From: Robiginitomaculum sp.
GTDB taxonomy: Bacteria > Pseudomonadota > Alphaproteobacteria > Caulobacterales > Maricaulaceae
NCBI GenBank assembly: GCA_965224735.1
Contig: OZ245059.1
Location: 2,361-34,360, forward strand
Length of the DNA: 32,000 nucleotides
Direction: 5' to 3'
Shown here piece after piece: positions 8,814-25,785 of this stretch; within the stretch, counting starts at the first letter, position 1, and each line of letters starts with the position of its first letter. Made by a program: the position numbers and the translations under genes. The notes below the pieces were generated by a model. That model did not search any database. It had not been told where the DNA came from and saw only the letters and a program-made list of their open reading frames with translations.

Positions 8814-9716
8814 TAGTCCGACAGTGTGCTGGTGTTGTGTATAGTGATCTGTCAACCAAGGAGGTTTTATGGGACAAGTATTACACGAAAGCGCCAAGAC
8901 GACGTACATTACGAGAGCAGGGCTACAGCGATCGCAAGCTTCAACCCAAGCATTAGCCTTGCAATACGGGTTGAATGTGAAAACGATTGCGAAATGGCGC
9001 AAACGCGATTTCACGCATGATGTCGCGATGGGGCCAAAGAAACGATCTTCGAGAATGTTGAGCTGTAAGTGTTGAGCATTGAAGAGGAAGCTATGTGTGT
9101 GGCGTTTCGCCAGCATACATTACTGCCTCTTGATGATTGTCTGTATGCTTTGCAAGAGACGCTTCCTCATCCCTCCAGATCCGCTCTACACCGCTGTTAT
9201 CAGCGCCACGGTATAAGCCGTCTCCCCAACCCGAAAAATGACAAACCTGCAAAGAAGGTGTTCAAGACATATCCAATAGGGTATTTTCATGTTGATATTG
9301 CCAAAGTGCGCACAGAGGAAGGGAAACTCTACATGTTTGTTGGCATAGAGCGGACATCGAAATATGCATATGTTGAATTGCACGCGCGGCAAACGAAAAT
9401 GGTTGCTGCAGCATTTTTACGTAAGCTAATCACAACCGTGCCTTATAAAATCCACACCCTTCTTACTGATAACGGGATACAGTTCACCAATCGCAAACAA
9501 GATAAATATGCTGGCATACATATCTTTGATCATGTGTGTCACGAACATGACATCCAGCACCGCCTGACGAAAACCCAGCACCCTTGGACGAATGGACAGG
9601 TGGAACGCATGAACCGTACCCTCAAAGGCCTCACGCCTTACGAATATATTTGCAAAATATCTACAAAGGAGCCACAACGGTTTAACGTAAACCCATACCA
9701 GCACACTGTGGGACTA
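8814..9716 (+). mobile_element. Degenerate IS481-family insertion sequence
   Basis: Terminal inverted repeats TAGTCCGACAGTGTGCTGG (8814-8832) and CCAGCACACTGTGGGACTA (9699-9716), 18/19 complementary, enclose the transposase reading frames. Confidence 0.75.
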
Positions 9717-9746
9717 GGGTCAGGACTCATTAAAGCCAATATATAA
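8869..9746 (+). pseudogene. IS481-family DDE transposase, split by a frameshift with a probable internal deletion
   Basis: The HTH part (8869-9075, ...LALQYGLNVKTIAKWRKR) and the integrase-core part (9069-9746, ...LLTDNGIQFTN...HPWTNGQVERMNRTLK) are in different frames. ERMNRTLK joins directly to GLTPYEYICK, where family members normally carry ~30 more residues. Confidence 0.75.
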
Positions 9747-12452: not shown

Positions 12453-12528
12453 TGGTGCCGCATGGGTGACTTGAACACCCGACCCCCACATTACGAATGT
12501 GATGCTCTACCAGCTGAGCTAATGCGGC
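12453..12528 (-). tRNA. tRNA-Thr (anticodon CGU)
   Basis: Reverse complement GCCGCATTAGCTCAGCTGGTAGAGCATCACATTCGTAATGTGGGGGTCGGGTGTTCAAGTCACCCATGCGGCACCA folds as a 76-nt cloverleaf: 7-bp acceptor stem, anticodon loop TTCGTAA, T-loop GGTGTTCAAGTCACC and an encoded CCA. Confidence 0.9.
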
Positions 12529-14141: not shown

Positions 14142-15209
14142 TTATTTTTCTAAAAAAGCAATTTCTTTAATGGCTTTTTTCGCGGCTGTTCGCCAATCTG
14201 TTGCGATTGCTCGTACAGGCGGATTAAGACTTTCGATGAGTGATACGGCCTCTTTAATATTTCCATTTCGCACAAACTCTAATGCGGCATCAATACTTAC
14301 GCGCGGGTTAGGCGTTTCATTGTCACGAACTTTCACATGTTTGGCGAGCGTTCGTTGAAGCCAGCTTGGTTTTTCAGCAGCCAAAGCTTCCTGAGCGCTA
14401 ACAGTGCTGAGCATTTTTTCACGCGGGAAAGTTTCAATCAAGATAGTAAGAATTTCAGCCTTAGTTGGTTTCTCGGTTTGTTTGGGAAGCTCAATCGGTT
14501 TGCTGTCTGGAATGGGAAAGGTTGCGGCGGGTTTAGTGTTTTCCAGTGCGGCGAGTCTATCTTCAAGCGCAGAAAACATGTCCGTAGCTTTGCCCGTAGC
14601 TTCAAGTGTGTCAATACGGGTAAGCAGAGCAGAGAGATCAGGGCCGCTTTTACCATCTTTAGGCTTTAGAGTTGCTAGGGATTTAATATCTGATTTGAGT
14701 GCCTCTATTTCTTGTCCGTAATCGGGCGCATCTTCTAATGGCTTTTGCGCAGCAATTTCTGCCTTAAAAATTGTTAGCTCTGATGCAGTTTTAGTTGTGG
14801 TTTGTTTGTTCTGTTGTGTCTCGGTCTGCAAAGTTTTGATTTTGGCATCAAGTGCAACGATACGCTGTTCCGCTTTGCCTAAATTTGTTTGGTATTGGTT
14901 ACGGATTTGCGAAAGACTCGCTTTCAAAGTATCAACCGTATGATCTGATTTGTTTAAATACTTCATACCTCCAATACCCAGCGCTCCGCCTGCAAGCGCG
15001 GCTATGAGAGACGAAGTAAGCAATGTTGCGAAATCTATGCTTTTTTTAGTCTTGGGTTTTGCTTTTGTCTTGGGTTTTGCTTTTAAGGTTTTAGGGTGCG
15101 ATTTTTCAGTCAGTGGTTTTTCAGTCAGTGGTTTTTCAGTCAGTGGTTTTTGCGCAGTTTTATCAACCTTGTCGTTTTTCTTCTGTGTTATGTCTTCATT
15201 GCTCATCAT
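14142..15209 (-). CDS. Alphaproteobacterial Mic60/mitofilin-like protein
   Basis: Lys-rich N-terminus with PLTEK repeats, one TM (SSLIAALAGGALGIGGM) and a long coiled-coil region. The C-terminus (...IDAALEFVRNGNIKEAVSLIESLNPPVRAIATDWRTAAKKAIKE) resembles the mitofilin signature. Start set at the ATG at 15209, preceded by GGAG. Confidence 0.6.
   Translation of the reverse strand: MMSNEDITQKKNDKVDKTAQKPLTEKPLTEKPLTEKSHPKTLKAKPKTKAKPKTKKSIDFATLLTSSLIAALAGGALGIGGMKYLNKSDHTVDTLKASLSQIRNQYQTNLGKAEQRIVALDAKIKTLQTETQQNKQTTTKTASELTIFKAEIAAQKPLEDAPDYGQEIEALKSDIKSLATLKPKDGKSGPDLSALLTRIDTLEATGKATDMFSALEDRLAALENTKPAATFPIPDSKPIELPKQTEKPTKAEILTILIETFPREKMLSTVSAQEALAAEKPSWLQRTLAKHVKVRDNETPNPRVSIDAALEFVRNGNIKEAVSLIESLNPPVRAIATDWRTAAKKAIKEIAFLEK
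15049..15084. repeat. 18-bp perfect tandem repeat x2 in the mic60-like gene
   Basis: GTCTTGGGTTTTGCTTTT x2 encodes KAKPKT x2. Confidence 0.9.
15106..15150. repeat. 15-bp perfect tandem repeat x3 in the mic60-like gene
   Basis: TCAGTCAGTGGTTTT x3 encodes (KPLTE)x3 on the minus strand. Confidence 0.9.
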
Positions 15210-18274: not shown

Positions 18275-21200
18275 ATGTATCTGAGGAAATCATTTTTAGC
18301 AGGGCTTGTTATAAATTCTTTCTCTGTTGCTTCGACCGCATTTTCAGCTACACCGCCAATAATACAAATTTCAGGGCAAAGAACAACCACCTATGAAAAT
18401 ACTTATGAAACGATAGCACCGTCATCAACAATAACTATGGAAGATAATTCAGGGCATTCCCAGCCACGCACATGGCATTATGAGTTTGTTGGTGATTTTC
18501 AAATAGTTTCTGTGAACGGGCCAAGAGACGATGTGTTTAATAACACCAAAGTTGAGAGATTTGATGATGGGAAGGTTGAGGTTATAACCAATCCACTTGG
18601 CCATCAAAACCGGTTTAAGTATGATAACACCCGAAATTTAATTTCACATACAGACGCCAACGGCGTCATAGATACATTTTCATATGATGGAAAGCTTCTG
18701 GTTGCTTATACCTATGCCGCAGGTTCCGCTCTTTCAGGCACAACAAGGTTGGCATATAACGCTGATGGCAAAATAACTCAGATTAATTTACCCCAGGATC
18801 AAGTTATTAGAGACACTCTTGATGATGAGGGGAATTACACCGATAGAGCCTATACAATCATTGCTCAGATATTCCAAAAAACCAGCTCACAAGGTTTAAA
18901 CAGGCTTTTCAAAAGGAAGGTGGGAGATGGTGGTCGAAACTTACCGCGTGAATTAACCCCATCACACGCAGCGAGTTCTCAAGAAGTAGATAGTCAGGGA
19001 AGATTAATTAAAAGTTATGATTTTTTGGGCGGCATTACAGAATACCGCTATAATGAGTTCGGAAATTTATCAGAAATGAAGCCGGCAGGAGGGGCGGTCA
19101 CACGATTTGAGTATAATGGATTTAATGAGATAGTTCGCAAAAAAAGTACCGATCGGGGTGTAACAACATTTGAGTATGACCAAGCGGGAAACAAAACCAA
19201 GGAAGTTCGTGCAGGGGGTTTCATCATAAAGAGAAAGTATGATGCTTTAAACCGATTGACGAGAAAAGTGTTCAAGCAAAACGGAGTGGATAAAAAAGTT
19301 ACCCGATATGTCTATGATAAGTGTAAAAATGGGATTGGCCGTGTTTGCAAAATTTCGGATTTCAGTGGGGTCACTAAGTTTCGTTATAATCTATTAGGGC
19401 ATTATAAGGCGGTGTCTGTAAAATATGCTGGTGAGGCTAATTTTAACACGGTCCGGTATTTTTATGGCGATGCTGGGCGTCTTGATAAGGTGCGTTATCC
19501 AACAGGGCTAATTGTTAGATACAGGTATTCAGATGCTGGATTTGTTAAAAAAATTACGGGCAGGTACGATACTGGTGAGGATAGGCAAAGGTTTGTTATA
19601 GCCAAAAACATTGAATTTGATCCTTTGTCAGGACAATTAACAAAATTTGTTTATGGCAACGCAATCAAGACAAGGGTTAAGCTTAATAAGGAAGCTGATA
19701 TATCAAAATTGATTGTTCGTAAGGACGGGGTAGTTATGGATAGATCAACTTACAACTATGATAAAAACGGCAATATAACCCACATTAATCGCCTTGACCC
19801 TGAACAAAGCCAAAACTTTTCTTATGATGCTCTTGGCAGATTAGTGGGTGAACAGCGCGGTATAAACAGCCAACAATCAACGTCTGTGTCCTATAGTTAT
19901 GATGCGAGGGGAAATCGTATTCGCAAAACTGATCTGAAAAAAACCAAAACCTATACTTACTCACCAAAAACAAACAGATTAACCCAAATCAACAAACAGG
20001 CTTTGCTCTATGACGCAAGGGGTAATTTGCTTGAGGACCGAGGTGGTAAGCGTGCTTTTTCATACGATGTGACGGGCCGTATGACGGGGTATTATAAGCG
20101 CGGAAAGCTAAAGGCCCGTTATAGCTATAATGCTTTGGGTCAACGCGTTTCAAAAACCATTCACCGCCCTGCAAAGAAAAATGACACCTATAAAAGTCTT
20201 CATTTTTCATACACCCCACGCGGAAAGCTTTTATCTGAATTTGGCCAAAACAGCCGTAATGCACGAACATTTACCAGGGAATATGTCTGGCTTGGCAACA
20301 AGCCTTTAGCGCAAATTGAAAGAACCATTAATAAGAAAGGCAAAACCAAAAAAACCAACATATATTATCTGCATTCAGACCATCTCAATACCCCTCGCTC
20401 TGCTAGCAATCAAAATGGAGAAATTGTTTGGCAATGGAATAGTGATGCTTTTGGCGTAGGAAAAGCCAACCGTGATGTCAATAATAACGGTAAGAAAGTT
20501 GCCATACGTCTACGTTTTCCTGGTCAATATTATGACGTAGAAAGCGGCCTGTCATACAATCACCACCGGGATTATGATCCAAAGATCGGCCGCTATATTC
20601 AACCTGATCCCATTGGGCTGGGCGGCGATGTAAATCCTTATGCCTATGTGGGTAGTAACCCTTTGAGTTACAGTGACCCTAATGGACTAAAGACATGCAC
20701 AGGCAGTAGAATTCAACGCTCAGACAGTTACAACTGCGGCGGTATGAGTAACGTTGAGTGTTTTGGCAATTGCAGCGGTTTTGGTGGACTAGCAAGAACA
20801 ACGAGGGGTTTTTGTGACGAGGGTGGCTGTACCGTAGAGGGCACGAGAAGTACGAATACTCCTGGGCATACATATTTAACATCAAATGTCGTATGCCGCA
20901 ATGCAGGCCTGGTATCCAATGCACAGCAAAAAAACCTTATGGCATGGTTTACCGTACCAAAGTTTTTTCCTTATATTGTCGACGTGCGAACTGGCACAGC
21001 AGAGACAGAGTACTTTGTATCCCATCCTGATACTGGGGTGCCAGGGGGTTTTGTAACCTCAGAATTAACACCTGATGGACTGTCGGGCACAAATGAAACT
21101 GTTCTAGGCAAGCATATATTCCAAGGGACGGTAACCCGTACATTGACAACAGTGAATGGGCAGCTTGTAATTGCTACATTCGGGACTGGAACATCAGATT

Positions 21201-21304
21201 CTGAAACGATGGATGCCTTGAACACTTGGTTAGGGCCTGGTATATTTAATGCATTAGACAAACACGCCGCCGACCGTCTAAGACGAACTTTTTCAGGATG
21301 TTAA
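18275..21304 (+). CDS. RHS/YD-repeat polymorphic toxin with Sec-type signal peptide and unassigned Cys-rich C-terminal domain
   Basis: YD repeats run throughout (FKYDNTRNLISHTDANG, FSYDALGRLV, YSYDARGNRI, LLYDARGNLL, FSYDVTGRMT, YSYNALGQRV). RHS core: YYLHSDHLNTPRSASNQNGEIVWQWNSDAFG...RFPGQYYDVESGLSYNHHRDYDPKIGRYIQPDPIGLGG. PxxxxDPxGL motif PLSYSDPNGL has its DPNGL at nt 20675-20689. The N-terminus MYLRKSFLAGLVINSFSVASTAFSA is signal-peptide-like. Confidence 0.9.
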   Translation: MYLRKSFLAGLVINSFSVASTAFSATPPIIQISGQRTTTYENTYETIAPSSTITMEDNSGHSQPRTWHYEFVGDFQIVSVNGPRDDVFNNTKVERFDDGKVEVITNPLGHQNRFKYDNTRNLISHTDANGVIDTFSYDGKLLVAYTYAAGSALSGTTRLAYNADGKITQINLPQDQVIRDTLDDEGNYTDRAYTIIAQIFQKTSSQGLNRLFKRKVGDGGRNLPRELTPSHAASSQEVDSQGRLIKSYDFLGGITEYRYNEFGNLSEMKPAGGAVTRFEYNGFNEIVRKKSTDRGVTTFEYDQAGNKTKEVRAGGFIIKRKYDALNRLTRKVFKQNGVDKKVTRYVYDKCKNGIGRVCKISDFSGVTKFRYNLLGHYKAVSVKYAGEANFNTVRYFYGDAGRLDKVRYPTGLIVRYRYSDAGFVKKITGRYDTGEDRQRFVIAKNIEFDPLSGQLTKFVYGNAIKTRVKLNKEADISKLIVRKDGVVMDRSTYNYDKNGNITHINRLDPEQSQNFSYDALGRLVGEQRGINSQQSTSVSYSYDARGNRIRKTDLKKTKTYTYSPKTNRLTQINKQALLYDARGNLLEDRGGKRAFSYDVTGRMTGYYKRGKLKARYSYNALGQRVSKTIHRPAKKNDTYKSLHFSYTPRGKLLSEFGQNSRNARTFTREYVWLGNKPLAQIERTINKKGKTKKTNIYYLHSDHLNTPRSASNQNGEIVWQWNSDAFGVGKANRDVNNNGKKVAIRLRFPGQYYDVESGLSYNHHRDYDPKIGRYIQPDPIGLGGDVNPYAYVGSNPLSYSDPNGLKTCTGSRIQRSDSYNCGGMSNVECFGNCSGFGGLARTTRGFCDEGGCTVEGTRSTNTPGHTYLTSNVVCRNAGLVSNAQQKNLMAWFTVPKFFPYIVDVRTGTAETEYFVSHPDTGVPGGFVTSELTPDGLSGTNETVLGKHIFQGTVTRTLTTVNGQLVIATFGTGTSDSETMDALNTWLGPGIFNALDKHAADRLRRTFSGC
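20074..20816 (+). repeat. 743-bp direct repeat, copy A (inside main rhs)
   Basis: Line-by-line comparison with 22384-23126 (offset 2310) shows no mismatch. The first differences are at 20817-20818 versus 23127-23128. Confidence 0.9.
20690..21301 (+). other. C-terminal (post-DPNGL) putative toxin domain of the main RHS, 204 aa, no recognised family
   Basis: It lies after the autoproteolysis-type motif. It has 8 Cys, 6 of them in the first ~47 aa, and the final residue is Cys. Two further variant copies lie downstream. Confidence 0.6.
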
Positions 21305-21305
21305 T

Positions 21306-21782
21306 ATGATGAAAACTAAAATAATTTCTATACAGTATTTGATATTTATTTTACCTGTTATGCTTTTGGCTGGTTGTGGTTATGGCACGGCTCTTAAGTA
21401 TAAACTCGAAGCGCCTGTCAACTATAGGTTAAAAATAACTGCCGATACTTCGCAACAAGCGGAACTTGATCTTAGACAGGCATTTATGCAGGAAAACTTA
21501 CAACTTGTTCGATATCGCCCCTACGATGATATAGATAGAAGTTATTATATATTTCACAGCAGTAGCAATATACATGTCAAATTACTTAATAGTCGGGGCC
21601 ATAAAAGTGCCATTGTTGCAATATATCCCGCCCGGCTCGCCTCTGTTTCATCCAAACTAAGAGCGCAATTGGAACAACGCGAAGAGGCACTCCTGCGTAT
21701 AGAGAAACAGCTAAAACAAACCGATAGTTTCTCCAAATATATACCCTCAGAGTGGGAAAGGGAATACAATATTTATAAGTGA
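21306..21782 (+). CDS. Putative immunity lipoprotein I1 (cognate to main CT)
   Basis: The ATG lies 1 nt after the toxin stop (TGT TAA T ATG), with AGGA 8 nt upstream. Lipobox LLAGC. It is a member of a 5-copy paralog family in this locus. Confidence 0.7.
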   Translation: MMKTKIISIQYLIFILPVMLLAGCGYGTALKYKLEAPVNYRLKITADTSQQAELDLRQAFMQENLQLVRYRPYDDIDRSYYIFHSSSNIHVKLLNSRGHKSAIVAIYPARLASVSSKLRAQLEQREEALLRIEKQLKQTDSFSKYIPSEWEREYNIYK

Positions 21783-21797
21783 AAATTGGTGAGGGCC
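21779..21797 (+). repeat. Cassette junction motif J1
   Basis: GTGAAAATTGGTgAGGGCC, spanning the immunity stop codon and the start of the next cassette. Confidence 0.85.
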
Positions 21798-21864
21798 TGG
21801 CATATTTAATGCATTAGACAAACACGCCGCAGACCGTCTAAGACGAGTTTTCTCAGGATGTTAA
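21793..21864 (+). pseudogene. Toxin-tail stub R1 (last 23 codons plus stop of an rhs CT)
   Basis: GPGIFNALDKHAADRLRRVFSGC* is homologous to 21233-21304. An in-frame TGA precedes it, and there is no start codon. Confidence 0.85.
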
Positions 21865-21865
21865 T

Positions 21866-22363
21866 ATGATAAAAACAATTGTCCGCCTAAAATATTTGGT
21901 CTTTATGTTACCGTTCGCGCTTATGGCTGGATGCGGTTATGATACAGCACTTAAGTACAAAACCAAAGGATCTACCAGCTATAGGTTAAAAATAACTGCC
22001 GAGACCCCGCAACAAGCGGAACTTGATCTTAGACAGGCATTTCTGCAGGAAAACTTACAACTTGTTCGCCATCACCTCTACAATGATATAGATAGAAGTT
22101 ATGCTATCTTTCACAGCAGTAGCTATATATATGTCAAATTACGTAATAGTGAAGGTTTTAGAAGAGCCATTGTTGCAATATATCCCGCCCGGCTCGCCTC
22201 TGTTTCATCCAAACGAAGAGCGCAATTGGAACAACGCGAAGAGGCACTTCTGCGTATAGAGAAACAGCTGAAACAAACCGATAGTTTCTCCAAATATATA
22301 CCCTCAGAATGGGAAAGAGACTACATGCACACCCTCAGAACGGGAAAGCCGCCGCTACAATAA
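21866..22363 (+). CDS. Putative immunity lipoprotein I2 (no full-length toxin partner)
   Basis: Lipobox LMAGC. Paralog of I1. The C-terminus is altered by a 31-bp imperfect duplication (…WERDYMHTLRTGKPPLQ*). Confidence 0.65.
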   Translation: MIKTIVRLKYLVFMLPFALMAGCGYDTALKYKTKGSTSYRLKITAETPQQAELDLRQAFLQENLQLVRHHLYNDIDRSYAIFHSSSYIYVKLRNSEGFRRAIVAIYPARLASVSSKRRAQLEQREEALLRIEKQLKQTDSFSKYIPSEWERDYMHTLRTGKPPLQ

Positions 22364-22369
22364 GTATAA

Positions 22370-22388
22370 GTGAAAATTGGTTAGGGCC
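22370..22388 (+). repeat. Cassette junction motif J2
   Basis: GTGAAAATTGGTTAGGGCC, joined to rhs sequence at GGGCC|GTATGACGGGG. Confidence 0.85.
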
Positions 22389-23126
22389 GTATGACGGGGT
22401 ATTATAAGCGCGGAAAGCTAAAGGCCCGTTATAGCTATAATGCTTTGGGTCAACGCGTTTCAAAAACCATTCACCGCCCTGCAAAGAAAAATGACACCTA
22501 TAAAAGTCTTCATTTTTCATACACCCCACGCGGAAAGCTTTTATCTGAATTTGGCCAAAACAGCCGTAATGCACGAACATTTACCAGGGAATATGTCTGG
22601 CTTGGCAACAAGCCTTTAGCGCAAATTGAAAGAACCATTAATAAGAAAGGCAAAACCAAAAAAACCAACATATATTATCTGCATTCAGACCATCTCAATA
22701 CCCCTCGCTCTGCTAGCAATCAAAATGGAGAAATTGTTTGGCAATGGAATAGTGATGCTTTTGGCGTAGGAAAAGCCAACCGTGATGTCAATAATAACGG
22801 TAAGAAAGTTGCCATACGTCTACGTTTTCCTGGTCAATATTATGACGTAGAAAGCGGCCTGTCATACAATCACCACCGGGATTATGATCCAAAGATCGGC
22901 CGCTATATTCAACCTGATCCCATTGGGCTGGGCGGCGATGTAAATCCTTATGCCTATGTGGGTAGTAACCCTTTGAGTTACAGTGACCCTAATGGACTAA
23001 AGACATGCACAGGCAGTAGAATTCAACGCTCAGACAGTTACAACTGCGGCGGTATGAGTAACGTTGAGTGTTTTGGCAATTGCAGCGGTTTTGGTGGACT
23101 AGCAAGAACAACGAGGGGTTTTTGTG
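22384..23126 (+). repeat. 743-bp direct repeat, copy B (5' part of orphan 1)
   Basis: Identical to 20074-20816. Confidence 0.9.
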
Positions 23127-23629
23127 GTGAGGGTGGCTGTACCGTAGAGGGCACGAGACAACGTACGCCTCCTTCTGCTCCTGGACATATATATTCAACA
23201 TCAAATGTCGTATGCCGCAATGCAGGCCTGGTATCCAATGCACAGCAAAAAAACCTTATGGCATGGTTTACCGTACCAAAGTTTTTTCCTTATATTGTGG
23301 ACGTGCGAACTGGCACAGCTGGTGAAACAAGATATTTTGTAACGCACCCTGATACAGGCGTCCCAGGTGGTTATGTAACTTCAGAACTTTTTTCTGGCGG
23401 GCTGACAGGAAGAAATACAACTGTTGATAATTTGCATTTTTTTGCTGGCACTATCACACGTACACTGACAACAGTGAATGGGCAGCTTGTAATTTCTACG
23501 CTCGGTGTTGGAACATCAGATTTTGTGACGATAGATGCCATAAATAGTTTATTAGGCCCAGGTGTCTTTAATGCACTAGATCGGCATGCTGCCGACCGTC
23601 TAAGAAGGGCTTTCCCCGGATGCCAATAA
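22391..23629 (+). CDS. Orphan rhs C-terminal cassette 1 (last YD repeats, RHS core and a variant CT)
   Basis: 412-aa ORF that starts at an internal Met of the rhs frame (MTGYYKRGKLKARYSYNALGQRV...). It includes DPNGL (22985-22999) and a CT that diverges from the main CT mainly in its last ~100 aa. There is no N-terminal signal or shell. Confidence 0.85.
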   Translation: MTGYYKRGKLKARYSYNALGQRVSKTIHRPAKKNDTYKSLHFSYTPRGKLLSEFGQNSRNARTFTREYVWLGNKPLAQIERTINKKGKTKKTNIYYLHSDHLNTPRSASNQNGEIVWQWNSDAFGVGKANRDVNNNGKKVAIRLRFPGQYYDVESGLSYNHHRDYDPKIGRYIQPDPIGLGGDVNPYAYVGSNPLSYSDPNGLKTCTGSRIQRSDSYNCGGMSNVECFGNCSGFGGLARTTRGFCGEGGCTVEGTRQRTPPSAPGHIYSTSNVVCRNAGLVSNAQQKNLMAWFTVPKFFPYIVDVRTGTAGETRYFVTHPDTGVPGGYVTSELFSGGLTGRNTTVDNLHFFAGTITRTLTTVNGQLVISTLGVGTSDFVTIDAINSLLGPGVFNALDRHAADRLRRAFPGCQ

Positions 23630-24090
23630 TAAATAAAATGCTTGCTCTACGGAACTTTGCCTTCATGCTAACCTTTGTGTGTATTTCTGGATGCGGGTAT
23701 GATGTGGTCTTACAGTACAAAGCGAAAGCATCTGTAGGGTATAGATTGACAATCACCTCAGATACACCTCAACAGGCATCATCCTTTGTTAAACAAACAT
23801 TTTTGTCGGAAGACTTGGAACCCGTCCATCATATTGAATTTGATACAGTCGAAAGGTCTTATATCTATCACAATAGTAGTATGATAATGATCACATTAAA
23901 TCTCGATTTTAAAACAGCAAATATTGCAATATATCCTGCCCGGCTTAACTCTGTTTCATCCAAGCGAAGAGCACAATTGAAACAACGTGAAGAAGCAATA
24001 TTACGTATAAAGCAAGTGCTGGAGAAGTCCGATAGTTTCACCAAATATATACCCTCAGAGTGGGAAAGAGAATACAATATTTATAAGTGA
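23620..24090 (+). CDS. Putative immunity lipoprotein I3 (cognate to orphan 1; most divergent paralog)
   Basis: Lipobox CISGC. Conserved family blocks IYPARLNSVSSKRRAQLKQREEAILRI and DSFTKYIPSEWEREY. An alternative start at 23638 (MLALRNF...) would avoid overlapping the toxin stop. Confidence 0.7.
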   Translation: MPIINKMLALRNFAFMLTFVCISGCGYDVVLQYKAKASVGYRLTITSDTPQQASSFVKQTFLSEDLEPVHHIEFDTVERSYIYHNSSMIMITLNLDFKTANIAIYPARLNSVSSKRRAQLKQREEAILRIKQVLEKSDSFTKYIPSEWEREYNIYK

Positions 24091-24105
24091 AAATTGGTTA
24101 GGGCC
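24087..24105 (+). repeat. Cassette junction motif J3
   Basis: GTGAAAATTGGTTAGGGCC, joined to rhs sequence at GGCCTGGTAT|CCAATGC. Confidence 0.85.
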
Positions 24106-24503
24106 TGGTATCCAATGCACAGCAAAAAAACCTTATGGCATGGTTTACCGTACCAAAGTTTTTTCCTTATATTGTCGACGTGCGAACTGGCAGACAAGGT
24201 TTTACAGAGTACTTTGTATCCCATCCTGATACTGGGGTGCCAGGGGGGTTTGTAACCTCAGAATTAACGCTTGATGGACTGTCGGGCATAAATAAAACTG
24301 TTCCAGGCCGGCATATATTCGCAGGGGAGGTAACCCGTACACTGACAACAGTGAATGGGCAGCTTGTAATTGCTACATTCGGGACTGGAACATCAGATTC
24401 TGAAACAATGGATGTCTTGAACACTTGGTTAGGGCCTGGTATATTTAATGCATTAGACAAACACGCCGCCGACCGCCTAAAACGAGTTTTTTCAGGATGT
24501 TAA
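24102..24503 (+). pseudogene. Orphan rhs CT fragment 2 (last ~130 codons only; ORF from the ATG at 24135)
   Basis: Homologous to 20906-21304 of the main gene: (GLVSNAQQKNL)MAWFTVPKFFPYIVDVRTG...FSGC*. It has no RHS core or DPxGL, and a TAG lies just upstream in frame. Confidence 0.8.
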
Positions 24504-24504
24504 T

Positions 24505-24978
24505 ATGATAAAAAACTATATAACTCAATCGCGGTATTGTACCCTTATTGTGGCCTTCTTTCTGGTAGGATGCGGTTATGATACAATACTTAGGTACAAA
24601 AACGAAGTGCCTGTCAACTATAGGTTAAAAATAACTGCCGATACCCCGCAACAAGCGGAATTTGATCTTAGGCAGGCATTTCTGCAGGAAAACTTACAAC
24701 TCGTTCGCAATCACCTCTACAATGATATAGATAGAAGTTATTCTATCTTTCACAGCAGTAGCCATATATATGTTCAATTACGTAATAGTGAAGGTTTTAG
24801 AAGGCTTCTTGTTGGGGTATATCCTGCCCGGCTCACCTCTGTTTCATCCAAACTAAGAGCGCAATTGAAACAACGCGAAGAGGCAGTCCTGCGTATAGAA
24901 GAAAAACTAAAACAAACCGATAGTTTCACCAAATATATACCCTCAGAGTGGGAAAGAGAATACAATAAGTATAAGTGA
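24505..24978 (+). CDS. Putative immunity lipoprotein I4 (I1-type)
   Basis: Same TGT TAA T ATG coupling as I1. Lipobox FLVGC. Family blocks are conserved. Confidence 0.7.
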   Translation: MIKNYITQSRYCTLIVAFFLVGCGYDTILRYKNEVPVNYRLKITADTPQQAEFDLRQAFLQENLQLVRNHLYNDIDRSYSIFHSSSHIYVQLRNSEGFRRLLVGVYPARLTSVSSKLRAQLKQREEAVLRIEEKLKQTDSFTKYIPSEWEREYNKYK

Positions 24979-24993
24979 AAATTGGTTAGGGCC
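24975..24993 (+). repeat. Cassette junction motif J4
   Basis: GTGAAAATTGGTTAGGGCC, followed by TGGTATATTTAATGC (toxin tail). Confidence 0.85.
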
Positions 24994-25060
24994 TGGTATA
25001 TTTAATGCATTAGACAAACACGCTGCTGACCGTCTAAGACGAGTTTTCTCAGGATGTTAA
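24989..25060 (+). pseudogene. Toxin-tail stub R2
   Basis: GPGIFNALDKHAADRLRRVFSGC*, 72 nt, homologous to 21233-21304. Confidence 0.85.
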
Positions 25061-25061
25061 T

Positions 25062-25559
25062 ATGATAAAAACAATTGTCCGCCTAAAATATTTGGTCTTT
25101 ATTTTACCTGTTATGCTTTTGACTGGATGCGGTTATGATACAGCACTTAAGTACAAAACCAAAGGATCTACCAGCTATAGGTTAAAAATAACTGCCGATA
25201 CCCCGCAACAAGCGGAATTTGATCTTAGGCAGGCATTTCTGCAGGAAAACTTACAACTCGTTCGCCATCACCTCTACGATGATATAGATAGAAGTTATGC
25301 TATCTTTCACAGCAGTAGCTATATATATGTTCAATTACTTAATAGTGAAGGTTTTAGAAGTGCCATTGTTGCAATATACCCTGCCCGGCTCGCCTCTGTT
25401 TCATCCAAACTAAGAGCGCAATTGGAACAACGCGAAGAGGCACTCCTGCGTATAGAGAAACAGCTAAAACAAACCGATAGTTTCTCCAAATATATACCCT
25501 CAGAGTGGGAAAGAGACTACATGCACACCCTCAGAACGGGAAAGCCGCCGCTACAATAA
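25062..25559 (+). CDS. Putative immunity lipoprotein I5 (I2-type, mosaic)
   Basis: Lipobox LLTGC. It has the same derived C-terminus as I2. The signal-peptide segment ILPVMLL matches I1 rather than I2. Confidence 0.65.
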   Translation: MIKTIVRLKYLVFILPVMLLTGCGYDTALKYKTKGSTSYRLKITADTPQQAEFDLRQAFLQENLQLVRHHLYDDIDRSYAIFHSSSYIYVQLLNSEGFRSAIVAIYPARLASVSSKLRAQLEQREEALLRIEKQLKQTDSFSKYIPSEWERDYMHTLRTGKPPLQ

Positions 25560-25565
25560 GTATAA

Positions 25566-25584
25566 GTGAAAATTGGTTAGGGCC
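25566..25584 (+). repeat. Cassette junction motif J5
   Basis: GTGAAAATTGGTTAGGGCC, followed by TGGTATATTTGATGC (toxin tail). Confidence 0.85.
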
Positions 25585-25667
25585 TGGTATATTTGATGCA
25601 TTAGACAAACACGCCGCAGACCGTCTAAGACGAGTTTTCTCAGGATGTTAATATGATGAAAAATTAG
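25580..25667 (+). pseudogene. Toxin-tail stub R3 plus truncated I1-type immunity start (array end)
   Basis: GPGIFDALDKHAADRLRRVFSGC* is followed by ATG ATG AAA AAT TAG. I1 begins ATGATGAAAACT, and homology is lost at ~25663. Confidence 0.8.
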
Positions 25668-25785
25668 GAGCTACCCTAGATACCTAGTTCAAATACCTTT
25701 TAACCCATTGTTTTAGCTGCCTTAACTGTGTCAGTGGGTCTGGGGTGACAGCAATAGGGATGCGGCACTAAGAGTAAGAGCCCGC

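What the first reader, a model, noticed from the sequence alone, without database searches (positions are those of the whole stretch)
21779..25584. Every cassette is joined through one 19-nt junction sharing GGCC-centred microhomology with three sites in the main gene
GTGAAAATTGGTTAGGGCC (one copy has G for T) occurs at 21779, 22370, 24087, 24975 and 25566. It always begins 1 nt before the TGA stop of an I1-type immunity gene, or just after the TAA stop of I2-type genes. What follows differs between copies: rhs core sequence (joined at GGGCC|GTATGACGGGG, main-gene site 20074), mid-CT sequence (joined at GGCCTGGTAT|CCAATGC, main-gene site 20906), or the 72-bp toxin tail (main-gene site TTGGTTAGGGCCTGGTAT at 21226-21243). 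The junction read in the toxin frame gives ENWLGPG, compared with NTWLGPG in the main gene. The junction is therefore itself derived from the toxin tail. Cassettes of 1.24 kb, 0.40 kb and 0.07 kb all appear to have been captured at the same tail-derived sequence using 5-18 nt of microhomology. This looks like template switching or microhomology-mediated joining rather than random decay. A dedicated site-specific mechanism cannot be excluded.
Basis: seen in the sequence. Interest (0 to 1): 0.65.

Follow-up and report, generated by a model that had tools for sequence, protein, structure and literature searches.

The report
Rhs toxin orphan-cassette array junction
The repeated 19-base "junction" is real. 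It is the seam between the end of an immunity gene and a leftover piece of the toxin gene's last 26 codons, copied along with the immunity genes in an ordinary Rhs toxin "orphan cassette" array, so it is a tidy example of a known process rather than a new capture mechanism.

Summary
In detail: the 19-mer occurs five times on the + strand at the stated positions, with 0 expected by chance. The three main-gene sites are also correct.

- **What the locus is.** It is a Sec-signal Rhs/YD toxin gene (18275-21304) in a Robiginitomaculum/Hellea-like marine alphaproteobacterium. It is followed by orphan toxin fragments and five paralogous lipoprotein immunity genes.
- **What the 19-mer is.** It consists of the immunity stop codon, AAA, and the first 12 nt of a truncated copy of the toxin's last 26 codons (the "tail").
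- **Not five captures.** Segments 20906-22388 and 24102-25584 are one 1483-nt segmental duplication that carries two junction copies each. In the three "tail" cases, homology simply continues for 79 nt. The divergent immunity gene Ic shares only its last ~77 nt plus the junction with the others, which indicates recombination.
- **Two real microhomology joints.** One is GGGCC, joined to the core. The other is GGCCTGGTAT, joined to the mid-toxin region; it is the longest word shared by the tail and the gene.
- **No site-specific machinery.** I found no nearby recombinase, hairpin or dif-like site.

Best reading: serial C-terminal displacement by homologous recombination plus rare illegitimate joining, as already proposed for Rhs and T6SS loci. 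This is a new member of a known kind, of modest interest.

The parts
18275..21304 (+). Main rhs gene (1009 aa). It has a Sec signal peptide, YD/RHS repeats, a core that ends at ...SYSDPNGL (~20675-20689), and toxin domain CT1.
   Evidence: ORF list. Pfam RHS_repeat 1e-36 and RHS 4.9e-07. Translation.
20074..20816 (+). R1, a 743-nt segment of the core plus the toxin N-terminal part. It is 100% identical to R2. Its first 5 nt (GGGCC) are the microhomology of the junction-to-core joint.
   Evidence: Exact-match extension. Repeat family D6.
20906..20915 (+). GGCCTGGTAT in the main toxin. This is the microhomology partner of the junction-to-mid-toxin joint.
   Evidence: It is the longest shared word between the tail block and the gene.
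21226..21304 (+). T1, the native toxin tail (WLGPGIFNALDKHAADRLRRTFSGC*). It is the source sequence of the orphan tails and encodes the C-terminal helix of the predicted toxin fold.
   Evidence: Structure model helix 127-155.
21306..21782 (+). Ia, an immunity gene (I1 type) encoding a lipoprotein with a lipobox.
   Evidence: Toxin-immunity synteny is conserved in relatives.
21779..21797 (+). Junction copy 1 (G variant, which makes TGA in the toxin frame).
21786..21864 (+). T2, orphan toxin tail (79 nt). No start codon in the toxin frame.
21866..22363 (+). Ib, an immunity gene (I2 type). It equals the I1 type plus a 34-nt insertion at 22322-22355 that shifts the frame to an earlier TAA.
22370..22388 (+). 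Junction copy 2. Its last 5 nt (GGGCC) overlap the start of R2, forming an illegitimate joint to the core.
   Evidence: The same joint is present in L001 and L013.
22384..23629 (+). Orphan rhs fragment: R2 (22384-23126, identical to R1) plus toxin variant CT2. It has a 412-aa ORF starting at the ATG at 22391.
23638..24090 (+). Ic, the divergent immunity gene. An upstream in-frame ATG lies at 23620. The last ~77 nt, including the junction, are of the common type.
24087..24105 (+). Junction copy 3. GGCCTGGTAT (24102-24111) is shared with mid-toxin sequence, forming an illegitimate joint.
   Evidence: The same joint is present in L001 and L014.
24102..24503 (+). Orphan mid-toxin fragment CT3. It is a CT1-like paralogue, and dN/dS against CT1 is 0.95.
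24505..24978 (+). Id, an immunity gene (I1 type).
24975..24993 (+). Junction copy 4.
24982..25060 (+). T5, orphan toxin tail.
25062..25559 (+). Ie, an immunity gene (I2 type). It is 95.6% identical to Ib and carries an Ia-like signal-peptide patch.
25566..25584 (+). Junction copy 5.
25573..25662 (+). T6, the last orphan tail, followed by only about 10 nt (ATGATGAAAA) of an immunity gene. This is the end of the array.

Best explanation
This is an Rhs/YD polymorphic-toxin locus with a downstream array of displaced ("orphan") toxin fragments and retained immunity genes.

**The 19-mer.** It is one ancestral seam between the 3' end of an immunity gene (…AAG TGA AAA) and a truncated copy of the toxin's last 26 codons (TTGGTTAGGGCC…). 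The seam formed once by an illegitimate event. Since then it has travelled with the immunity genes in two ways. One is a 1.48-kb segmental duplication, or the import of an allelic block. The other is homologous recombination or gene conversion through conserved blocks: the core/R segment, a 100-nt mid-toxin block, the 79-nt tail, and the last ~60 nt of the immunity gene.

**How the array grew.** The tail copy behind each immunity gene is homologous to the tail of any resident toxin of this family. A toxin-immunity-junction-tail segment can therefore replace a resident toxin's variable part by two homologous crossovers, one in the core and one in the tail. The old immunity gene is left behind its own tail. 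This produces the "0.07-kb cassettes".

**The two exceptions.** Twice the right-hand end was resolved illegitimately inside the G+C-rich start of the tail. One joint is at GGGCC with the core (leaving 1.24 kb of old gene). The other is at GGCCTGGTAT with the mid-toxin region (leaving 0.40 kb).

**Shown:** the anatomy, the duplication, the mosaicism, the two microhomology joints, and the absence of a recombinase, hairpin or dif site.

**Inferred:** the order of events. I cannot say whether the donor was another strain (homology-facilitated illegitimate recombination), a sister chromosome (unequal exchange or template switching) or a circular intermediate. RecA dependence is also inferred.
For: - Five junction copies with 0 expected by chance.
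- Rhs identity and the DPNGL core end.
- Tail homology runs from TTGG to the stop codon in all tail copies.
- 20906-22388 and 24102-25584 are both 1483 nt, 91% identical, with the same internal order.
- Ic is 68-71% identical to the other immunity genes overall, but about 97% over its last ~77 nt plus the junction. Ie is Ib-like with an Ia-like patch.
- Same-species assemblies differ in which tail and I2 gene follow Ia and Id (L012 has a novel tail with GAGCC; L001 and L013).
- R1 and R2 are 743 nt with 0 differences, while flanking paralogous parts have dS of 0.07-0.4.
- GGCCTGGTAT is the longest exact word shared by the tail block and the gene.
- dN/dS is 0.28 for CT1 vs CT2 and 0.32-0.52 for the immunity genes, indicating functional divergence. 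It is 0.95 for the truncated CT3, indicating decay.
- No recombinase is adjacent, the site has no DNA structure, and there is no dif-like site.
- Independent tail-plus-immunity orphans sit behind unrelated genes in other Robiginitomaculum-type contigs (L011/L016 and L018).
- Literature: C-terminal displacement of Rhs tips (PMC2935791); effector displacement with retained immunity genes by homology-facilitated illegitimate recombination (PMC5361080); strings of immunity genes as remnants of former cassettes (PMC3482391).
Against: - Both illegitimate joints fall within the first 18 nt of a 79-nt tail, 6 nt apart. This is mildly unlikely for random breakpoints (roughly 0.05 if confined to the tail). 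It hints at a local hotspot or at selection.
- GGGCC is not the best microhomology available. 7-mers are shared elsewhere.
- No truly independent relatives carry the junction, so the "formed once" claim rests on within-locus patterns alone.
- The perfect identity of R1 and R2 next to paralogues that are 7-18% diverged needs an extra assumption: recent gene conversion, or a conspecific donor with an identical core.
- The short-read contigs used for strain variation could be partly chimeric across repeats.
Confidence: 0.72

Rival explanations
1. The tail-derived 19-mer is a recurrent capture hotspot. Each of the five cassettes was joined there independently by template switching or microhomology-mediated joining, using 5-18 nt of homology.
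For: Two joints do use microhomology at adjacent positions in the same G+C-rich patch. All five units share the identical left side.
Against: Four of the five copies lie in one duplicated 1483-nt block. The three tail cases are continuous 79-nt homology, not joints at GGCC. The shared left side extends about 60 nt into otherwise divergent immunity genes, which points to shared descent or gene conversion.
Confidence: 0.1
2. A dedicated site-specific system inserts cassettes at the junction. Candidates are integron-like systems, recombinase-associated immunity arrays, or Xer/dif-like modules.
For: A uniform boundary sequence between cassettes resembles attC/attI or the conserved intergenic repeats of recombinase-associated immunity arrays. 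XerC/D genes lie next to some polyimmunity loci (PMC3482391). A trans-acting enzyme encoded elsewhere in the 2.6-Mb genome cannot be excluded.
Against: - No tyrosine or serine recombinase lies in the 32 kb around the array. The only integrase-fold ORF is an IS3-type transposase fragment 9 kb upstream, beyond housekeeping genes.
- The junction plus tail has no hairpin (z = +0.94).
- There is no dif-like site.
- The right-hand partners are joined at different offsets (after GGGCC and after GGCCTGGTAT).
- The "site" is simply coding sequence of the toxin's C-terminal helix.
Confidence: 0.03
3. The tail persists because of selection rather than recombination mechanics. The last ~80 nt of the toxin gene would carry the immunity gene's promoter and translation signals. 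Deletions then prune orphan toxin DNA down to that boundary but no further. This could act together with the best explanation.
For: - Promoter-like TTGAAC-17-TGgTATATT lies in the native tails (21218-21246, 24417-24445). GTGAAA-16-TGgTATATT lies at junction copies 4 and 5.
- The toxin stop and immunity start (GGATGTTAATATG) are conserved across the family.
- Tail-only orphans with nearby left ends exist in two other lineages.
- The immunity genes are under purifying selection.
Against: - Promoter-like hits are common in this A+T-rich region: 35 found against 21.7 expected.
- The -10-like element is lost at the two non-tail joints without consequence for the upstream gene.
- The organism is an alphaproteobacterium whose promoters may not fit the scan.
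- This model does not explain why the left side of the seam is identical in all units.
Confidence: 0.25

Closest known systems
Rhs C-terminal displacement arrays (Jackson et al. 2009, PMC2935791) and orphan rhs-CT/rhsI modules (Poole et al. 2011, PMC3150448; Koskiniemi et al. 2014, cited from my own knowledge and via PMC5361080)
   Same: A full-length rhs gene is followed by fragments that keep variable lengths of core identical to the main gene, alternative toxin tips, and their immunity genes. The G+C content is lower than in the flanks. A long perfect direct repeat (743 nt) could fuse the main gene to the orphan by RecA recombination.
   Different: The toxins here are all variants of one family with a conserved C-terminal helix. 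A copy of that tail follows every immunity gene. As a result, most displaced units have no core at all, only 79 nt of tail. The Rhs protein carries a Sec signal peptide and has no VgrG or PAAR nearby. The host is an alphaproteobacterium.
Effector displacement with retained immunity genes by homology-facilitated illegitimate recombination in Vibrio cholerae T6SS clusters (Kirchberger et al. 2017, PMC5361080)
   Same: New effector-immunity modules are added at the 5' side. Old immunity genes, sometimes with the 3' end of the old effector, are shifted downstream. The model uses one homologous anchor plus one illegitimate end.
   Different: In that work the illegitimate end was inferred. Here two joints can be read at nucleotide level (5 and 10 nt of G+C-rich microhomology). 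Most events appear to need no illegitimate step, because the tail supplies a second homology arm.
Polyimmunity loci and recombinase-associated immunity arrays (Zhang et al. 2012, PMC3482391; Bacteroidales rAID systems, from my own knowledge)
   Same: Tandem same-orientation paralogous immunity genes with short conserved spacers. Their content varies between strains.
   Different: Those loci are not interrupted by toxin fragments and often sit next to XerC/D-like recombinases. Here toxin fragments are interspersed and no recombinase is adjacent.

Membership tests
Rhs/YD polymorphic toxin locus with orphan (displaced) C-terminal cassettes | Full-length gene with RHS/YD repeats and a core ending in the PxxxxDPxGL-type motif | tested here: met
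   Pfam RHS_repeat 1e-36 (8 stretches) and RHS 4.9e-07. The sequence ...NPLSYSDPNGL precedes the variable toxin.
Rhs/YD polymorphic toxin locus with orphan (displaced) C-terminal cassettes | Downstream fragments carry partial core (near-)identical to the main gene, joined to alternative toxin tips | tested here: met
   22384-23126 is 100% identical to 20074-20816, and CT2 then diverges. CT3 is a fragment without core.
Rhs/YD polymorphic toxin locus with orphan (displaced) C-terminal cassettes | Each toxin tip is followed by a cognate immunity gene | tested here: inconclusive
   A paralogous lipoprotein gene follows every toxin or tail. The same toxin-immunity pairing recurs in all relatives (L002, L003-L010, L019, L020). 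Protection was not tested and neither protein has a Pfam family.
Rhs/YD polymorphic toxin locus with orphan (displaced) C-terminal cassettes | Compositional trough relative to the flanks | tested here: met
   G+C is 41-42% in rhs and the array, versus 46-47% in the flanks.
Homology-facilitated illegitimate recombination product | Illegitimate joint at a short (about 3-10 nt), usually G+C-rich microhomology | tested here: met
   GGGCC (5 nt) at 22384-22388/20074-20078, and GGCCTGGTAT (10 nt) at 24102-24111/20906-20915. The 10-mer is the longest shared word. The typical length and G+C bias are from my own knowledge of the HFIR literature cited in PMC5361080.
Homology-facilitated illegitimate recombination product | Incoming foreign DNA anchored by one homologous arm (a transformation or HGT event) | not testable with these tools
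   The same joints would arise from unequal sister-chromosome exchange, or from a microhomology-closed circle that integrates through R. No independent strains were available to tell these apart.
Integron-like or recombinase-associated cassette array | Adjacent integrase or tyrosine recombinase gene | tested here: not met
   The neighbours are tsaD, gpsA and YCII upstream, and a LMW phosphatase, a response regulator and a GMC oxidoreductase downstream. The only other candidate is an IS3-type rve ORF at 9069-9746. The rest of the genome was not available.
Integron-like or recombinase-associated cassette array | Structured (imperfect palindrome) recombination site at each cassette boundary | tested here: not met
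   Single-strand DNA fold of 24940-25065 gives -6.4 kcal/mol and z = +0.94. 167 of 200 shuffles fold at least as well.
Xer/dif-type module | dif-like site (two 11-nt arms around a 6-nt spacer) at the boundaries | tested here: not met
   The relaxed pattern ATAA-N6-TTATGTTAA with up to 2 mismatches gives 4 hits in the window (2.3 expected). None lies at a junction or tail. Only this simplified consensus was tried.

The most novel reading that the evidence does not exclude
The tail copy behind every immunity gene is not just debris. It would be a selected, portable homology arm, and possibly also a promoter. Because it matches the conserved C-terminal-helix coding sequence of any toxin in this family, a toxin-immunity-tail segment can insert precisely at the end of a resident toxin by RecA alone. 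The locus would then be a recombinase-free collector of immunity genes, integron-like in outcome but driven by homology. The G+C-rich GGGCCTGG patch would be its fallback microhomology site.
Probability: 0.2. Interest if true: 0.6.

Novelty: new member of a known kind. Interest (0 to 1): 0.3.

Why it matters
Displacement of Rhs and T6SS toxin tips with retention of old immunity genes is widely inferred, but its joints are rarely legible. This locus preserves them at single-nucleotide resolution. It shows one inherited seam, long homologous blocks that explain most of the repetition, and two clear microhomology joints. That supports the published "homologous anchor plus occasional illegitimate end" picture.

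It also suggests a testable refinement. In toxin families with a conserved C-terminus, a toxin-tail remnant carried behind the immunity gene can serve as the second homology arm. That would let immunity genes accumulate without any illegitimate step.

Separately, the toxin-immunity family itself is uncharacterised. It has a predicted helix-grip/START-like toxin and a lipoprotein immunity partner, and so far is found only in Robiginitomaculum-type marine bacteria.

Tried and rejected
- **GTDB genome scan with the five-immunity alignment.** No relatives were found. The peptide patterns were too specific to the window.
- **GTDB genome scan with the toxin alignment.** Only two Robiginitomaculum MAG contigs were found.
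- **Metagenome scan for a 21-nt junction pattern.** 0 hits. The toxin alignment re-found one known contig. No independent junction-bearing relatives could be obtained.
- **L014 as a possible strain lacking the first cassette.** L014 joins window 20073 directly to 22384. I rejected this as evidence for a loop-less strain. The missing 2310-nt loop is a separate contig in the same sample (L013) at similar coverage (304x vs 254x), as expected when an assembler collapses the 743-nt perfect repeat.
- **Codon-position test on the five tails.** The aim was to see whether orphan tails diverged under coding constraint. There are only 10 variable sites, 5 at third positions, so the test is not significant.
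- **Promoter scan.** Suggestive extended -10 motifs lie in the tails, but the region is rich in such hits, so I kept this only as a hypothesis.
- **Translational coupling through an ORF covering the orphan tails.** No such ORF of at least 20 aa exists.
- **attC-like structure.** None.
- **dif-like site.** None.
- **Rfam scan.** Only a tRNA at 12456-12528.
- **Single-sequence structure prediction of the toxin.** Useless (pLDDT 33). An 8-sequence alignment was needed.
- **Origin of the seam itself.** Comparing the array's end (ATGATGAAAA|ATTAGGAGC) with immunity gene ends gave only a 6-nt TGAAAA coincidence.

Full report
**1. Observation**

The 19-mer GTGAAAATTGGTTAGGGCC occurs on the + strand at 21779 (one mismatch), 22370, 24087, 24975 and 25566. 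It occurs nowhere else in the window, and none of 100 shuffles produced a match.

- its position relative to the stop codons of the upstream genes;
- the three kinds of downstream sequence;
- the three matching main-gene sites: GGGCCGTATGACGGGG at 20074, GGCCTGGTATCCAATGC at 20906 and TTGGTTAGGGCCTGGTAT at 21226;
- the toxin-frame reading ENWLGPG versus NTWLGPG.

Both non-tail joints are also present in independent short-read assemblies of the same species (L001, L013, L014). They are real.

**2. Anatomy**

- **Main gene.** 18275-21304 encodes a 1009-aa Rhs/YD protein (Pfam RHS_repeat 1e-36, RHS). It has an N-terminal Sec-type signal peptide and a core ending in ...SYSDPNGL. A ~205-aa toxin (CT1) follows.
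- **Immunity genes.** Five paralogous genes follow: Ia 21306-21782, Ib 21866-22363, Ic 23638-24090, Id 24505-24978 and Ie 25062-25559. All have a lipoprotein lipobox.
- **I2 type.** Ib and Ie differ from the I1 type by a 34-nt insertion (22322-22355 in Ib, 25518-25551 in Ie). It shifts the frame to an earlier TAA.
- **What lies between the immunity genes:**
  - 79-nt copies of the toxin's last 26 codons (T2 21786-21864, T5 24982-25060, T6 25573-25651);
  - an orphan core plus CT2 fragment (22384-23629);
  - an orphan mid-toxin fragment CT3 (24102-24503).
- **End of the array.** After T6 come only ~10 nt of an immunity gene.
- **Composition of the 19-mer.** It is the last base of the Lys codon, then TGA, then AAA, then the first 12 nt of the tail.

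**3. Why this is not five independent captures**

(a) Homology between the orphan tails and the main-gene tail begins at TTGG and runs to the toxin stop codon. In three of the five cases GGCC is therefore not a breakpoint.

(b) 20906-22388 and 24102-25584 are both exactly 1483 nt and 91% identical. They share the order mid-toxin, I1 gene, junction, tail, I2 gene, junction. Four junction copies are thus two duplicated (or allelic) pairs.

(c) Ic is only 68-71% identical to the other immunity genes. Its last ~77 nt including the junction are 96-98% identical to theirs. Ie is Ib-like but carries an Ia-like signal-peptide patch. Homologous exchange or gene conversion is evidently active and spreads the block made of the immunity 3' end plus the junction.

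(d) Same-species assemblies differ in which tail and I2 gene follow Ia and Id. One (L012) has a tail variant, with GAGCC, that is absent from the window. Chimeric assembly across repeats cannot be fully excluded for the order differences.

**4. The two real joints**

- **Junction to core.** The tail (…TTAGGGCC|TGGTAT) and the core (…GACGGGCC|GTATGA) share GGGCC. Rightwards the orphan is identical to the main gene for 743 nt.
- **Junction to mid-toxin.** The tail and the toxin share GGCCTGGTAT. This is the single longest exact word common to the junction+tail block and the 2.9 kb of gene upstream. About a quarter of shuffles have a word that long, so its existence is unremarkable. The breakpoint nevertheless sits exactly on it.

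Both joints lie in the only G+C-rich patch of an A+T-rich tail. This is the signature of microhomology-dependent illegitimate recombination. Sequence alone cannot say whether it happened by homology-facilitated illegitimate recombination of incoming DNA, by unequal sister-strand exchange or template switching, or by closure of a circle that then integrated through the repeated core.

**5. Proposed history (inferred)**

- A minimal locus core-CT-tail-I-junction-tail arose once.
- A tail now follows the immunity gene. A donor segment CT-I-junction-tail can therefore replace a resident toxin's variable part by two homologous crossovers, one in the core and one in the tail. The old immunity gene stays behind its own tail. 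This gives the 0.07-kb units.
- Twice the right end was resolved illegitimately: first at the mid-toxin site, leaving CT3, and then at the core site, leaving R2-CT2.

Substitution patterns fit this history:
- CT1 versus CT2 has dN/dS 0.28 and dS 0.41, so these are old functional alleles.
- The immunity genes have dN/dS 0.32-0.52, so they are under constraint.
- The truncated CT3 versus CT1 has dN/dS 0.95, indicating decay.
- R1 and R2 have no differences over 743 nt, so this repeat is recent or has been homogenised.

That 743-nt perfect repeat could also mediate RecA-dependent deletion, fusing the main gene to CT2. This is exactly the path taken by contig L014. However, the loop is present at similar coverage in that sample.

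**6. No site-specific machinery found**

- The neighbours are housekeeping genes (tsaD, gpsA, YCII; LMW phosphatase, response regulator, oxidoreductase). The only integrase-fold ORF is an IS3-type fragment 9 kb upstream.
- The junction and tail do not fold (z = +0.94).
- There is no dif-like site.
- The "site" is simply coding sequence for the conserved C-terminal helix of the toxin.

**7. Relatives**

TsaD places the organism near Robiginitomaculum (72-74% identity) and Hellea (66-69%), which are marine Alphaproteobacteria. The immunity and toxin families are tiny: 9 and 7 clusters among 5.8 billion proteins.

- Most relatives have a single toxin-immunity pair (L003-L010, L019, L020).
- One pair is cargo of a Tn3-family transposon (L002).
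- Two other lineages have a tail-only remnant in front of an immunity gene, behind unrelated genes.
  - L011/L016 reads …NQLLGPGVFDALDRHAARLLRVAFPGC*.
  - L018 reads …GSIFNALDVHAADRLRRSFPGC*, followed by a degraded immunity gene.

Keeping roughly the last 22-31 codons of the toxin in front of a displaced immunity gene therefore recurs. This could reflect crossovers in the most conserved segment. It could also reflect selection for expression signals: promoter-like TTGAAC-17-TGgTATATT lies in native tails and GTGAAA-16-TGgTATATT at two junctions. That evidence is weak because such hits are common here.

**8. Comparison with what is known**

- The architecture is that of Rhs C-terminal displacement arrays (PMC2935791) and orphan rhs-CT/rhsI modules (PMC3150448).
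- The mechanism proposed matches that put forward for T6SS effector displacement with retained immunity genes (PMC5361080). That paper explicitly invokes homology-facilitated illegitimate recombination and notes the lack of an integrase.
- Strings of immunity genes as remnants of past cassettes are also described in PMC3482391.
- What is particular here is the toxin-tail copy behind every immunity gene, and how legible the joints are.

**9. Verdict**

This is a new member of a known kind. The most novel reading still open is that the tail remnant is a selected portable homology arm or promoter, which would make the locus a recombinase-free immunity-gene collector. I give that about 0.2 probability.

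Noticed in passing
window 18275-18355: The Rhs protein starts with a Sec-type signal peptide (MYLRKSFLAGLVINSFSVASTAFSA). There is no PAAR domain and no vgrG or T6SS gene within 32 kb. All immunity proteins are lipoproteins. This suggests a periplasm- or envelope-acting toxin exported by a route other than T6SS.
   Followed up: partly
window 20825-21301: The toxin domain has no Pfam family. An AlphaFold model built from an 8-sequence alignment (pLDDT 82.5, pTM 0.77) most resembles START/Bet v 1/PYR-PYL helix-grip proteins (Foldseek E about 1e-4, TM 0.5-0.6). The conserved tail forms the long C-terminal helix of that fold. A ligand- or lipid-binding fold would be unusual for an Rhs toxin.
   Followed up: partly
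window 20074-20816 and 22384-23126: These are a 743-nt perfect direct repeat. Recombination across it would delete 2310 nt and fuse the main rhs gene to CT2-Ic. Contig L014 shows exactly that path, but it is probably an assembly collapse.
   Followed up: yes
window 22322-22355 and 25518-25551: The I2-type immunity genes carry a 34-nt insertion. It looks like a diverged tandem duplication of ACCCTCAGA.GGGAAAG…, and it shifts the frame and changes the C-terminus (…DYMHTLRTGKPPLQ).
   Followed up: partly
window 22391-23629: The orphan core-CT2 fragment keeps an intact 412-aa ORF that starts at an ATG 2 nt after the junction. It could be expressed as a truncated Rhs-toxin, as reported for Salmonella orphan Rhs.
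   Followed up: no
window 25653-25675: The array ends with a tail followed by ATGATGAAAA(ATTAGGAGCTAC). This is only the first 10-22 nt of an immunity gene. TGAAAA is shared with the immunity gene 3' end, which suggests a microhomology deletion.
   Followed up: partly
L002 119-8109: A 77%-identical Rhs (1016 aa) and its immunity gene sit between a Tn3-family transposase and a resolvase. In a relative, this toxin-immunity pair is therefore transposon cargo.
   Followed up: no
L011 1348-1918 (= L016 2708-3266); L018 1433-1950: These are independent tail-only toxin remnants directly in front of immunity genes, preceded by unrelated genes. L017 shows the same unrelated 42-aa and 114-aa gene pair downstream of another toxin-immunity pair.
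   Followed up: partly
L012 1104-1190; L001 1976-2599; L013 686-705: Same-species assemblies differ from the window. One has a novel orphan tail with GAGCC after Ia. Ib and Ie occupy swapped positions in another. One has an Ie-like patch inside Ib. These are either real recombination variants or repeat-induced assembly chimeras.
   Followed up: partly
window 15045-15148: Short tandem repeats lie just upstream of tsaD: TTTAGTCTTGGGTTTTGC and its one-mismatch copy TTTTGTCTTGGGTTTTGC (18 nt x2), and TTTCAGTCAGTGGTT (15 nt, about 3 copies).
   Followed up: no
window 9069-9746 and 12456-12528: There is an IS3-type transposase (rve) ORF fragment, and a tRNA gene on the minus strand. G+C is 41-42% in rhs and the array versus 46-47% in the flanks, which suggests the locus was acquired horizontally.
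   Followed up: partly
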